Shown: positions 18,865 through 21,800 of the stretch, in pieces
How positions within the stretch are numbered: position 1 is the stretch's first letter
Layout: each line of letters begins with the position of its first letter
Source: Trypanosoma brucei
Taxonomy: Eukaryota
Assembly (NCBI GenBank): GCA_000002445.1
Contig: CP000069.1
Location: forward strand, 320,001 to 384,000
DNA length: 64,000 bases
Reading direction: 5' to 3'
Notes under the pieces: generated by a model
Database searches by the model: none
What the model was told of the DNA's origin: nothing
What the model saw: the letters and a program-made list of their open reading frames with translations, nothing else
Translations under genes and position numbers: made by a program

Positions 18865-21800
18865 TTGCTGGTTTGGAGGGTAGCAAGAGTCGCACGTCTT
18901 GATTGTTGTTCATGTTGTCGCCGTTGTAACCGGGGTGGCCACTCGGTGTTCGTGATGTAGAACCTCTATTTTTTTTTTTTTAAAGAGTGGTTATCGTTTT
19001 TTTTTTTAAGAAAATTTCTTTTTATCTGTTATTTAATTCTGCGTCGATGTCTCAAGTGTTTTCAATATCGCGCGTGCGCAACTATCGTTTACGATGATAT
19101 TAATTTCCATTCGTAACTGTGACATGAGCGCACCTACAAGTTTGAAATTTTGTAGATATGCGGTTGTATCAGTATGGCAAGAAATGTCATATGTAACAAA
19201 TGCAGCTTGTCAGTTGTCGTTGATTTCATTTTCCTCTCTTTGCTTTGTAGAAATGTGTATATGAACTTATCTGTGAATATGATGGTTTCCGGTGTTTTTT
19301 TTAAAATTACCATTGAGTAATTTTGTTTTTTGTTTCCAATTTGTGGATATTCTTTTTTTTTTCCCCTGCTTTACTTCTGTTGATGCTGTTTCGTTAGACC
19401 TTCTTTGTTGTAACCTGCAAGGCCTAATCTCCCGGCGGAATATGCCAGCATTTTATGCATTTGGTGAGTGGTCTGACGTCTTTTCCGGAGGGAGGAAATG
19501 GGAAACATGGGGTGGAAGGGTTATTAGGTGGTGATAACGTTTCTTTTTTCATTAATTTTTTTCGGACGTTTCCTTTGTTAAGGTAATGGTCTTACTTGCT
19601 CGCATGTGCGCTGTTGCGTTGAACTTTGCTTCTATACTCGTTGTTGGGTGTACCCGTATTTCTTTCTTTTTTCTTTGATGGTTTGTAAAGGGCGTGGAGA
19701 ATGGAAGTGGTATGACTTTTAGGAGCCGCTATGCGGGAGTGTTCTGGTGATTTACGTGCGAAAATGGGCACATATGCGACTGTGGCGTTCTGTGGTGATG
19801 TCTTCGCCCCTCTCGCATCCGCGTGGTTGTGTTAACACTTCGCCGTTACGTCGTGTAGTGCCCATGTGCGGGGTGATACAGTTGTTGCGGTGGCAAACAA
19901 TAGTTAAGTGCATGAGGGCGGGTGTAGAGAAAGACTTTCGTCGGGCAAAATAAGCCGCTGGGCTTCTTTAACGATGTGACGACCTTTCGATTTTTTTGCT
20001 GATGGGCAACTGTGCGGTTCCTCGTGCTCAATCAACGGATCACTGCTGTTGGTTGCTCTGCGTCGCTGCTGTCGTGCCTGCTTCCCCCATCTTTTGACTC
20101 GATGGGTGCTGGAGGTGTGTGTGTGTGTGTGTGGAGGGTTGTCTGATTTCTTTTAGCTTTTCAATGCTGCAGAGACAAACCCACATTTTTTTTGTTTCTC
20201 TTTTGCATAAATGAGATGCCGTGGAGACACTAAATGGCGACGTGTGCCTCCAACTGTCATGATGACGACTGTCATGTTCCGCCAATGCCTTCAGGTAGCC
20301 GAAATGTTTGGCTTTAAACAGTGTGTGCGTGTTTGTGGGGTGCGTGGGAACCGGAACTCCGGTGTCTCGGGGAAATGCGTGCCGCTTCTGATGAACCTTC
20401 GCCTCCCCCCGATAGCGAGGGAAGCCCGGTTCCCTCCGTCCACCGCAACGGACTCTTTTACTTGCGTATTGTCGAATATTCACACGAGGGAACTGAATTG
20501 GGTTTCCGTCAACTCCGCCTCTACAACTAAACTCGTCTGTGCCGCACCTCCAGAGGCGGGGTTGACGGAAACCCAATTCAGTTCCCTCGTGTGAATATAT
20601 ATCCGTCATTATGTATTTATGAATAGATGTGGCACCTTTGAATGTAAAATGAATCGGGTGTCCCATGACATGGAAATGGAATATTGCAACGGGTTTTTTT
20701 GGGAGCCGCCGGATTCTCCCGCCCAATTAAGCGGGAACTGGTGAGGCAAAAAGGCATTCGGTGCGGTGCCTTACGGTTGGGAAGTGGGTGAAGCCGTGAC
20801 GCCGCCGTAGCGTCGCACACACACACACACACAGAGAGAGACCACCAGGCACGGACATTTGGGCAAAAAAGGGGGCAAAAACGGTTCGTACCGCAGCAAA
20901 TGGGGGCCCATTTAGTTCTGATCGCACGCAGTTGCAAGCGTCGGTAATATAATATCTTTCTGCTTGTCACCGCGTTTTGAAAGGCCAGCGGGATGGAAGT
21001 ATTTGGAAGGAGAGGGGGGGGGGCTCTAAGAACAAAAACAACAATAACAAAAAAAAAGGATCTGCCACCGCGGCGGCGATTTACTCATTGTCAGCCCCGG
21101 ACAGGACTTGCAGGGATCCGCGCTTACGCTGACTAGGGGAAACGATGAGGCATCTGCAGCAAAATAAATAAATAATAATAATACTTATGGTTCCGGCAAA
21201 TTTGAGGGAAATCATCGGCAAGCCGAATGAGGAAGATGCCACTCCTCGTCATATACACTCTTTGGGTTGGCACCGCGGTGAGGGAAACATGGGAGGTGAT
21301 GGGGAATAAATCCGTTGCGTGCCACTTTACTTTTAGTTCCCGCTACCGCTTCTTTTATGGGTTACCCTATCGGATAATAATGAAGGTGTTGTGACAACGA
21401 TGTCCACGCAGCCTCTTCAGCTTACGGTAGTATCGGCAACTAAAGCGGAACGTTCGCAGAAGGACATGCATTTCCAGCAGGAAACCGTGCATGTCTCACA
21501 CGGCTGTGGCGTAGCCTTCGGAAATTTTTGTTACTTTTATGTTGTTGTTGTTGTTGGGGCGCGATAGAAATAGCCTCCGCAAAACTCGGAAAAGCCGGGC
21601 ATCTCCACTCAACTTAGTTTGGAATGCGAGGCTACACGTGTAGAAGGAGCTGAAAGGGAAGAAGTGCCTGTGGAAATCTTGTTGGTGTGCGGTAGCGGCT
21701 GATTTCTCACCCGCCCACTACTCGAAACCGGTTCCAAGTCCGCGTATCATCACACACACGCGGTTCCTACGGCCACTTTTTCCCCCTCCAGTTGCCGCTG

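What the first reader, a model, noticed from the sequence alone, without database searches (positions are those of the whole stretch)
20476..20598. 47-bp-stem hairpin with a single G-U wobble in the middle of a convergent transcription-termination zone
Arms 20476-20522 and 20552-20598 are reverse complements at 46 of 47 positions around a 29-nt loop. An inverted repeat this long and this clean is not expected by chance in unique DNA. The single mismatch is a G-U pair on the + strand transcript, so that transcript still folds into a perfect stem. The hairpin sits where read-through from both polycistronic units would meet. In RNAi-competent T. brucei, inverted repeats and convergent transcription units are known sources of endogenous siRNAs. 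Alternatives are a foldback/MITE-like element remnant or a structural terminator element.
Basis: partly seen in the sequence, partly recalled or inferred. Interest (0 to 1): 0.72.

Follow-up and report, generated by a model that had tools for sequence, protein, structure and literature searches.

The report
Long hairpin palindrome where transcription converges
A real, single-copy 123-base DNA palindrome sits where two opposing gene clusters of Trypanosoma brucei chromosome 6 meet, inside a zone already published as a source of Dicer-dependent small RNAs, so it is a curious local detail of a known kind of locus rather than a new system.

Summary
Arms 20476-20522 and 20552-20598 pair at 46 of 47 positions around a 29-nt loop. 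Chance cannot produce this, and it is the only long inverted repeat in the window that is not low-complexity.

The window is T. b. brucei TREU927 chromosome 6, v4 320,001-384,000, so the hairpin lies at 340,476-340,598. It sits in the 4.7-kb non-coding gap between the last GRESAG4 adenylate cyclase gene (+) and a conserved 109-aa gene (-). It also sits at the point where intergenic T/A skew flips. The annotated ORF across it, Tb927.6.810, is probably spurious.

This strand-switch region is Tschudi et al. 2012's CTU22. It gave 6,433 small-RNA reads from both strands, reduced to 0.45% without DCL2. No available data are resolved to the hairpin itself.

An independent Trypanozoon assembly carries the same palindrome. 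Its only two differences are exact pairing partners (G:C to C:G), which is unlikely under independent substitution (P about 0.001). The shared mismatch persists in both.

Both strands fold equally well, so the G-U argument does not pick a strand. I found no dispersed copies, no in-window target and no terminator features.

Most likely it is a template-switch-born palindrome whose read-through transcripts feed the known DCL2 pathway. Interest is modest.

The parts
20476..20522 (.). Left arm of the palindrome (47 nt)
   Evidence: the repeat finder I1. Identical in L001 except G20508>C.
20523..20551 (.). 29-nt spacer/loop (ACAACTAAACTCGTCTGTGCCGCACCTCC)
   Evidence: Invariant in TREU927, L001 and the gambiense assembly.
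20552..20598 (.). Right arm of the palindrome (47 nt)
   Evidence: the repeat finder I1. Conserved in L001 and gambiense apart from C20566>G.
20514..20514 (.). T of the only non-Watson-Crick position. Its partner is G20560: U-G in + RNA, A-C in - RNA. The mismatch is shared by all assemblies.
   Evidence: pair 39/85 = UG in 3 of 3 sequences.
20508..20508 (.). Compensatory position. G here pairs with C20566 in TREU927; the pair is C and G in L001 and gambiense.
   Evidence: 20508 + 20566 = 20476 + 20598. Pair 33/91 is CG:2, GC:1. Chance P is about 0.0003-0.0014.
20040..20666 (-). Annotated ORF Tb927.6.810 ('hypothetical protein', 208 aa) spanning the hairpin; probably not a real gene
   Evidence: 100% match to P0001, which is the only hit in the protein database. 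No Pfam family. Frameshifted in L001. Absent from all Kolev 2010 tables held, and the Pol II units there end at .800 and .820.
15031..18864 (+). Last of four tandem receptor-type adenylate cyclase (GRESAG4, Tb927.6.800) genes; end of the + strand unit
   Evidence: Pfam Peripla_BP_A-cyclase and Guanylate_cyc. Kolev Table S14 unit Tb927.6.760 to .800.
23530..23859 (-). Conserved 109-aa ORF; last plausible gene of the - strand unit
   Evidence: An identical protein is encoded in three other Trypanozoon assemblies. It shows 0 differences from L001 while the flanks differ by 3-10%.
18865..23529 (.). Non-coding convergent gap, inside Tschudi CTU22 (window 17,500-26,800). T/A skew is +0.27 to +0.36 up to 20364 and -0.14 to -0.24 from 20665.
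20116..20133 (.). (TG)9 microsatellite left of the hairpin. It mirrors the (CA)9 at 20816-20833, but the two are not equidistant from the centre and are not part of a larger palindrome.

Best explanation
The feature is a genuine, single-locus, near-perfect 123-bp DNA palindrome in the non-coding overlap zone of two converging Pol II polycistronic units of T. brucei chromosome 6 (v4 340,476-340,598).

Origin (inferred): a replication template-switch or fold-back copying event wrote one arm as the reverse complement of the other. The same hairpin-templated copying, arm-to-arm conversion, or selection on the stem has since kept the arms matched.

Action (inferred): Pol II reading through from either unit transcribes the palindrome. 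Either transcript snaps into a 47-bp perfect or near-perfect dsRNA stem, long enough for roughly two 22-25-nt duplexes. The nuclear Dicer-like enzyme DCL2 dices it together with the sense/antisense dsRNA of the zone. The hairpin would thus contribute to the DCL2-dependent small-RNA pool already published for this strand-switch region (CTU22).

I see no evidence of a dedicated trans target or a dedicated function. The most likely status is a structurally maintained by-product element within a known siRNA-producing termination zone.

Shown: the structure, uniqueness within the window, position at the skew switch, presence in independent assemblies, one compensatory double change, and locus-level DCL2-dependent small RNAs. 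Inferred: transcription through the hairpin, dicing of the hairpin itself, and the template-switch origin.
For: Structure and improbability.

Identity and coordinates: the ORF over the hairpin is Tb927.6.810 of TREU927, and the neighbour is PUF4. Kolev 2010 Table S13 places the PUF4 stop at 350,722, which is window 30,722, an offset of exactly 320,000.

The region is CTU22, 337,500-346,800. It gave 3,392 top and 3,041 bottom reads in wild type, 153% of wild type in dcl1-/- and 0.45% in dcl2-/-, and ranks 8th of the 48 CTUs listed in the table. Reynolds 2016 also lists chr6 339,037-344,823 as a small-RNA-producing cSSR.

Position: T/A skew typical of + unit intergenic DNA (+0.21 to +0.36) holds up to 20364. 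It is near zero in the hairpin bin and negative beyond.

The region is non-coding. The Tb927.6.810 ORF is frameshifted in L001 and has no homologues or domains. The + strand 127-aa ORF differs from its L001 copy at 6 residues, by my reading of the two translations.

Maintenance: the only two differences between TREU927 and L001 within the 123 bp are exact pairing partners, G:C to C:G. Under independent substitution P is 0.0003-0.0014. Template switching is a published one-step source of perfect stems and of compensatory changes (PMC8794818). Tschudi et al. noted the same near-identity of arms for the long T. brucei inverted repeats.
Against: No small-RNA or RNA-seq data resolved to 20476-20598 could be consulted, so hairpin-derived siRNAs are not shown. 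CTU22 reads could all come from overlapping convergent transcription.

Kolev 2010 lists no novel processed transcript on chr6 between 310 and 424 kb, so no stable RNA covering the hairpin is documented.

In bloodstream forms this cSSR gives only about 17 RPM, far less than several other chr6 cSSRs.

The shared T-G mismatch, 6 nt from the compensated pair, has not been corrected. That sits awkwardly with frequent hairpin-templated homogenisation.

If the gambiense left arm is real rather than a contig-end artefact, 11 of 47 pairs are broken there.

Only two complete haplotypes were available. No outgroup shows a pre-palindrome state, so the template-switch origin is untested.
Confidence: 0.5

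Rival explanations
1. DNA-level palindrome only. It is a neutral mutational scar from a template switch or fold-back at a site of replication/transcription conflict. It may extrude as a hairpin or cruciform and act as a fragile or recombination-prone site, but it has no RNA role because transcription stops before reaching it.
For: Two of four Trypanozoon assemblies break at or next to it. The gambiense assembly has a 100-N gap abutting the arm, and the T. equiperdum OVI contig ends about 220 nt away. TREU927-L001 divergence changes from about 0.5-1% on the left to 3-6% on the right of the palindrome, as expected at a recombination or haplotype breakpoint. The DNA fold is strong. No processed transcript is recorded here. 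Arm-to-arm correction explains the compensatory pair without any selection (PMC8794818).
Against: The surrounding zone does give DCL2-dependent small RNAs from both strands, so transcription enters it. The uncorrected T-G mismatch argues against efficient DNA-level homogenisation. Assembly breaks may simply reflect the nearby microsatellites and tandem genes.
Confidence: 0.22
2. Dedicated boundary or fail-safe termination element. The nascent hairpin is cut co-transcriptionally by nuclear DCL2 (an RNase III enzyme). This gives a 5'-3' exonuclease an entry point that dislodges Pol II, so neither unit invades the other. The stem is kept by selection.
For: The hairpin sits at the compositional switch point between the two units. 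It folds from either strand, as a bidirectional stop would need. It has one compensatory change with a tolerated wobble. Small RNAs of the zone depend on DCL2. From general knowledge, RNase III-coupled termination exists elsewhere: yeast Rnt1, S. pombe Dcr1 and the human Microprocessor.
Against: It is a single locus, and no comparable hairpin could be examined at any other cSSR. Termination in T. brucei is attributed to base J, H3.V/H4.V and the PJW/PP1 complex, with no sequence element known. My search found no paper linking DCL2 to termination in T. brucei. Conservation beyond the T. brucei group is untestable here.
Confidence: 0.08
3. Remnant of a miniature inverted-repeat (MITE/foldback) transposable element.
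For: Its architecture is almost all terminal inverted repeat with a short centre. The flanking bases can be read as a TA duplication.
Against: The TA is part of the palindrome itself, so it is uninformative. There is one copy in 64 kb, no match longer than 10 nt elsewhere in the window, and none elsewhere in the 20-kb related loci. The six-frame product across it matches only Tb927.6.810 among 5.8 billion proteins. There were 0 hits in the metagenome and prokaryote collections. From general knowledge, no DNA transposons are known in T. brucei.
Confidence: 0.06
4. The sequence is part of a real protein-coding gene (Tb927.6.810) and the palindrome is incidental to coding.
For: A 208-aa ORF is annotated in TREU927. 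It is not in Kolev's complete list of ORFs without a transcript.
Against: It has no homologue anywhere and no Pfam family. The frame is broken in L001. Both strands carry long ORFs here simply because a palindrome free of stops in one frame is also free of them on the other strand. Kolev's Pol II units end at .800 and .820.
Confidence: 0.03
5. Assembly or cloning artefact (collapsed or snap-back palindrome).
For: The gambiense contig end next to the gap carries an 82-nt-arm, error-rich version that looks like a snap-back artefact.
Against: The same 47/29/47 architecture is present in the TREU927 sequence and in an independent assembly that differs at about 3% of flanking positions and has its own paired variant.
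Confidence: 0.02

Closest known systems
siRNA-producing convergent transcription units of T. brucei (Tschudi et al. 2012, PMC3447711; Reynolds et al. 2016, PMC4721609)
   Same: It is the same locus. The hairpin lies inside CTU22 (chr6 337,500-346,800), which yields small RNAs from both strands that depend on DCL2 and not on DCL1.
   Different: CTU siRNAs are explained by overlap of the two converging transcripts. A discrete intramolecular hairpin within a CTU is not described in those papers.
Long inverted-repeat (IR1-IR7) siRNA loci of T. brucei and hpRNA loci of Drosophila
   Same: These are also inverted repeats whose arms are almost identical. Their transcripts would fold back into dsRNA, and they are known Dicer substrates. 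The authors also remark on the unexplained near-identity of the arms.
   Different: Those arms are 422-10,011 bp with kb-scale spacers, and none is on chr6. Here the arms are 47 bp, enough for only about two siRNA duplexes, and no hairpin-resolved reads are available.
Template-switch-generated hairpins / quasi-palindrome correction (Monttinen and Loytynoja 2022, PMC8794818)
   Same: That mechanism gives one-step creation of a long perfect stem, and paired 'compensatory' changes on one lineage. One such pair is seen here.
   Different: No ancestral or outgroup sequence was available to show the event. An uncorrected mismatch persists 6 nt from the corrected pair.
RNase III-coupled Pol II termination (yeast Rnt1, S. 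pombe Dcr1, human Microprocessor; from general knowledge)
   Same: A long stem at the end of a transcription unit in an organism with a nuclear Dicer, and the small RNAs of the zone need that Dicer.
   Different: This is purely an analogy. No cleavage, no termination defect and no second example have been shown in trypanosomes.
Palindrome-rich 'P5' 3'-UTRs with AGO1-dependent regulation (Bravo Ruiz, Tinti and Horn 2026 preprint, 10.64898/2026.01.20.700697)
   Same: Self-complementary RNA in T. brucei non-coding sequence, linked to the RNAi nuclease.
   Different: Those are short enriched motifs in many mRNA 3'-UTRs. This is one 47-bp stem 1.6 kb past a stop codon, not shown to be in any mRNA.

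Membership tests
Convergent-transcription-unit siRNA locus (T. brucei CTU) | Lies between the 3' ends of two converging Pol II polycistronic units | tested here: met
   The + strand genes end at 18864 and the - strand genes start at 23530. Kolev Table S14 gives the units as .760 to .800 (+) and .1290 to .820 (-).
Convergent-transcription-unit siRNA locus (T. brucei CTU) | 22-25-nt small RNAs from both strands that are DCL2-dependent | tested here: met
   Taken from published tables after coordinate anchoring. CTU22 has 3,392 top and 3,041 bottom reads, and dcl2-/- retains 0.45% of wild type. This holds at locus level only, not for the hairpin.
Hairpin-RNA / inverted-repeat siRNA locus | Inverted repeat able to form an extended perfect dsRNA stem | tested here: met
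   A 47-bp stem forms on either strand, with z = -14.5 and -15.9.
Hairpin-RNA / inverted-repeat siRNA locus | Transcribed as one RNA spanning both arms | not testable with these tools
   No RNA-seq was accessible. Kolev 2010 lists no novel processed transcript on chr6 between 310 and 424 kb.
Hairpin-RNA / inverted-repeat siRNA locus | Dicer-dependent, AGO1-bound small RNAs mapping to the arms | not testable with these tools
   Only region-wide counts are published. The IR survey of Tschudi et al. lists 7 repeats of 422 bp or more, none on chr6.
MITE / foldback transposon | Multiple dispersed copies | tested here: not met
   Within the reach of the tools there is one copy in 64 kb and nothing longer than 10 nt elsewhere. 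The translated ORF has a single hit in the protein database. A whole-genome BLASTN was not possible.
MITE / foldback transposon | Target-site duplication flanking the terminal inverted repeats | tested here: inconclusive
   The flanks can be read as TA/TA, but those bases belong to the palindrome (ATAT...ATAT).
Intrinsic (hairpin plus U-tract) terminator | G+C-rich short stem followed by a run of U | tested here: not met
   There is no T-run after the stem on either strand. The terminator scan finds nothing at the hairpin and no excess in the region.
Template-switch-generated hairpin | Paired changes in both arms arising on one lineage | tested here: met
   20508 G>C and 20566 C>G are the only differences from L001 and are pairing partners. 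Chance P is 0.0003-0.0014. Selection on the stem would give the same pattern.
Template-switch-generated hairpin | Ancestral or outgroup sequence lacking the inverted copy | not testable with these tools
   No syntenic sequence exists outside the T. brucei group. The T. grayi PUF4 contig is only 5.7 kb.
Protein-coding gene (Tb927.6.810) | Reading frame conserved among strains, plus homologues or domains | tested here: not met
   The frame is shifted in L001. There are no homologues and no Pfam family.
Known structured RNA family (Rfam) | Match at or above the gathering score | tested here: not met
   There were 0 matches at gathering thresholds. The only sub-threshold hit is a chance one to the bacterial Leu_leader, 30.8 bits against 50.

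The most novel reading that the evidence does not exclude
The palindrome is a bidirectional, Dicer-coupled boundary element. Whichever polymerase reaches it makes a 47-bp stem that nuclear DCL2 cleaves co-transcriptionally. This triggers exonucleolytic termination and leaves a few siRNAs as a by-product, and the stem is held by compensatory evolution. If so, it would be the first sequence-encoded Pol II termination signal in a trypanosomatid.
Probability: 0.07. Interest if true: 0.75.

Novelty: new member of a known kind. Interest (0 to 1): 0.35.

Why it matters
How and where Pol II stops at convergent strand-switch regions in trypanosomes is an open question. So is where the dsRNA behind CTU siRNAs comes from; Tschudi et al. 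say so explicitly. A discrete, unusually clean hairpin at the compositional boundary of one such region is a cheap, well-defined handle on both. It is one 123-bp element that can be deleted, inverted or mutated with compensating changes, with read-through, antisense RNA and small RNAs as the readout. If nothing changes, it is simply an example of a template-switch palindrome surviving in non-coding DNA. Either way, it also flags Tb927.6.810 as a likely false gene model.

Tried and rejected
1. I looked up the last adenylate cyclase ORF, Tb927.6.810 and NOT2 in the assembly index to get TREU927 coordinates or more strains. None was on record.

2. I first guessed from gene numbering and the L001 coordinate that the region was Tschudi's low-read CTU21. 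That was wrong. Kolev Table S13 anchors the window at 320,001, which makes it CTU22 (the correction is in the notebook).

3. Protein searches with the hairpin ORF, the 109-aa ORF and PUF4, meant to find dispersed copies or syntenic loci in other species, gave only T. brucei-group hits. The one exception was a 5.7-kb T. grayi contig with no informative flank. Deeper conservation could therefore not be tested.

4. I tested for a larger degenerate palindrome around the arms. Nothing turned up beyond the (TG)n/(CA)n microsatellites.

5. I compared the 3' flank of the last cyclase copy with the inter-copy spacer. There is no similarity.

6. I searched for in-window targets of hairpin-derived siRNAs. 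There are none longer than 10 nt.

7. Rfam gave nothing real at gathering or relaxed thresholds. There are no tRNA genes.

8. Exact-pattern scans of the metagenome and prokaryote collections gave 0 hits.

9. The formal covariation test has no power with three sequences: 148 of 500 shuffles did as well.

10. I treat the gambiense left arm as unreliable because it abuts a 100-N gap.

11. Literature searches for Tb927.6.810, for palindromes at termination sites and for a DCL2-termination link found nothing specific. The supplements of Zheng 2013 and Siegel 2010 are not held.
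Full report
**Observation**

The inverted repeat is exactly as described. The arms are 20476-20522 and 20552-20598, 47 nt each, and they pair at 46 of 47 positions around a 29-nt spacer.
- The + strand RNA folds as an unbroken 47-bp stem: -91.1 kcal/mol, z = -14.5, with 0 of 200 shuffles as good.
- The one non-Watson-Crick position is T20514 opposite G20560.
- The - strand RNA has an A-C 1x1 loop at that position, but it folds at least as well: -94.2 kcal/mol, z = -15.9.
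- The DNA fold is also extreme: -57.6 kcal/mol.

The arm occurs only twice in the window at up to 3 mismatches. No segment longer than 10 nt recurs elsewhere. Every other long inverted repeat in the 64 kb is (TA)n or A/T-rich low complexity at 70-85% complementarity.

**Where it is**

The - strand ORF across the hairpin is 100% identical to 'hypothetical protein Tb927.6.810 [Trypanosoma brucei brucei TREU927]'. The 1033-aa neighbour is PUF4.

Upstream lie four tandem receptor-type adenylate cyclase (GRESAG4) genes on the + strand, ending at 18864. Downstream, all genes are on the - strand. The last plausible one is a 109-aa ORF at 23530-23859. Three other Trypanozoon assemblies encode an identical protein, and its DNA shows no difference from L001 while its flanks differ by 3-10%.

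Kolev et al. 2010 (PMC2936537), Table S13, gives PUF4 poly(A) positions 348,064 (3'-UTR 2,658 nt) and 349,007 (1,715 nt). Both place the stop codon at 350,722, which is window 30,722. The window is therefore Tb927_06_v4 320,001-384,000, and the hairpin lies at 340,476-340,598. The same paper's Table S14 ends the two Pol II units at Tb927.6.800 (+) and Tb927.6.820 (-).

**The hairpin marks the compositional boundary**

- Intergenic DNA of the + unit has T/A skew of +0.21 to +0.32. Intergenic DNA of the - unit has -0.19 to +0.01, negative in seven of the eight stretches measured.
- Within the gap, every 300-nt bin from 18865 to 20364 has +0.27 to +0.36.
- The bin holding the palindrome has +0.09, and the next two have -0.14 and -0.24.
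- The cumulative T-A curve stops rising at about 20,300-20,400.

**The annotated gene is probably not real**

- Tb927.6.810 has no homologue among 5.8 billion proteins and no Pfam family.
- Its frame is broken in L001.
- The 127-aa ORF on the + strand differs from its L001 counterpart at 6 residues, by my reading of the two translations. That pattern does not suggest selection on a protein.
- Tb927.6.810 appears in none of the Kolev tables held as text.

**Published small-RNA data**

With the coordinates fixed, the region is CTU22 of Tschudi et al. 2012 (337,500-346,800, which is window 17,500-26,800).
- It gave 3,392 top-strand and 3,041 bottom-strand reads in wild-type procyclics.
- It gave 153% of wild type in dcl1-/- and 0.45% in dcl2-/-.
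- It is the eighth most productive of the 48 CTUs listed in the table.

I had first guessed CTU21 from gene numbering, and that guess was wrong.

Reynolds et al. 2016 list chr6 339,037-344,823 as a cSSR with about 17 RPM of small RNA in bloodstream forms. The normalised change after H3.V loss was not an increase (logFC -0.33).

None of these data are resolved to the hairpin. The inverted-repeat survey of Tschudi et al. lists only repeats of 422-10,011 bp, and none is on chr6. Kolev et al. list no novel processed transcript on chr6 between 310 and 424 kb.

**Comparison with other assemblies**

The 109-aa protein pulled in three loci.

*L001 (GCA_003543875.1).* From memory this is T. equiperdum IVM-t1; I could not verify the accession. 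It aligns across the whole gap at about 97% identity. It carries the same 47/29/47 palindrome with the same T-G mismatch.

Its only two differences within the 123 bp are 20508 G>C and 20566 C>G. These are exact pairing partners, because 20508 + 20566 = 20476 + 20598. Both assemblies are fully paired at this position, so both changes happened on one lineage. The gambiense right arm shares the L001 state, so the change was probably on the TREU927 lineage.

Under independent substitution, the chance of a Watson-Crick double change with no broken pair is 0.0003-0.0014 across plausible divergence. With only three sequences, the formal shuffle test has no power.

*T. b. gambiense DAL972 (L002).* The loop and right arm are intact. 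The left arm has 11 broken pairs, and the inverted symmetry extends outward to 82-nt arms. It abuts a 100-N assembly gap that replaces everything back into the cyclase CDS. I read this as a snap-back contig-end artefact, but I cannot exclude a real variant.

*T. equiperdum OVI contig.* It ends at the (CA)n about 220 nt from the hairpin.

TREU927-L001 divergence is about 0.5-1% to the left of the palindrome and 3-6% to the right.

**What it is not**

- It is not an assembly artefact, because an independent assembly carries it with its own variants.
- It shows no sign of being a dispersed element within the reach of the tools. The apparent TA flanks are part of the palindrome.
- It is not a hairpin-plus-U terminator.
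- It is not an Rfam family or a tRNA.
- It is not part of a larger degenerate palindrome.

**Most likely explanation**

The element is a single-locus palindrome in non-coding DNA at the meeting point of two polycistronic units.

*Origin.* It is best explained by a replication template switch that copied one arm from the other. This is a documented one-step source of long perfect stems and of paired 'compensatory' changes (PMC8794818).

*Action.* When either polymerase reads into the zone, the transcript forms a 47-bp dsRNA, long enough for about two siRNA duplexes. This would join the DCL2-dependent pool already measured for CTU22.

*Shown versus inferred.* Shown are the structure, the position, the persistence across assemblies, the paired change and the locus-level DCL2-dependent small RNAs. 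Inferred are transcription through the hairpin, dicing of it and its origin.

*Evidence against.* No hairpin-resolved reads were available and no processed transcript is recorded. The mismatch 6 nt from the corrected pair remains uncorrected. The gambiense arm may be degenerate.

*Rivals, in order.*
- A purely DNA-level scar or fragile site.
- A Dicer-coupled boundary or termination element. This is the most interesting reading, with low probability.
- A MITE remnant.
- A real coding gene.
- An assembly artefact.

**Novelty and interest**

The siRNA-producing strand-switch region is already known. The discrete hairpin within it is not described in the literature I could search. I file it as a new member of a known kind: a short hairpin-type inverted repeat inside a known CTU siRNA locus. 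Interest is modest at 0.35. It is clean, sits at the boundary and is evidently maintained, which makes a tidy genetic test possible. But it is a single case, with no demonstrated product or function.

Noticed in passing
window 23530-23859 (-): A 109-aa ORF with a plausible protein sequence. The identical protein is encoded in three other Trypanozoon assemblies. Its DNA shows 0 differences from L001 while its flanks differ by 3-10%. The only name any source gives it is T. equiperdum TEOVI_000270600, and Kolev 2010 lists no transcript for it. It has a weak, sub-threshold Prefoldin_2 similarity (E = 0.028). It may be a conserved small gene missing from the TREU927 annotation.
   Followed up: partly
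window 24500-30500: A 6-kb stretch of 24-33% G+C, full of short A/T-rich repeats but with no long tandem array. It lies between the 109-aa ORF and PUF4. Kolev 2010 places the major PUF4 poly(A) site at window 29,007, so part of the stretch is a long PUF4 3'-UTR. It aligns to L001 at only about 93% with many indels.
   Followed up: partly
window 15031-24630 vs L001: Divergence between TREU927 and L001 steps up at the palindrome, from about 0.5-1% per 200 bp on the left (cyclase gene and its 3' flank) to 3-6% on the right. This could be a haplotype or recombination breakpoint, or gene conversion among the cyclase copies.
   Followed up: no
L002 13471-13653 (gambiense) and L003 end: The gambiense DAL972 assembly has a 100-N gap running from inside the cyclase CDS to an 82-nt-arm, 88%-complementary version of the palindrome. 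The T. equiperdum OVI contig stops at the (CA)n about 220 nt from the hairpin. Assemblies tend to break here.
   Followed up: partly
window 764-18864: Four tandem GRESAG4 adenylate cyclase genes with a 4,754-bp period. The last copy is 3 aa longer (1277 vs 1274 aa), and its 3' flank has no similarity to the inter-copy spacer.
   Followed up: partly
window 20116-20133 and 20816-20833: A (TG)9 to the left and a (CA)9(GA)n to the right of the hairpin form a second, looser inverted pair. They lie 343 nt and 218 nt from the arms, so they are not symmetric about the centre.
   Followed up: yes
window 39745-40074: A long (TA)n-rich imperfect inverted repeat (arms about 57-78 nt, 73-82% complementary) in an intergenic region of the - strand unit. 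It is low complexity.
   Followed up: no
Tschudi 2012 Additional file 5 (chr6 DNK1, DNK2): Two chromosome-6 small-RNA loci 'with no clear features' gave 5,111 and 4,248 reads. Unusually, they depend on both DCL1 and DCL2. They are listed without coordinates, so whether either is near this window is unknown.
   Followed up: no
window 20483-20619 (+): A sub-threshold Rfam match to the bacterial Leu_leader (30.8 bits against a gathering score of 50). It is a chance hit caused by the long stem.
   Followed up: yes
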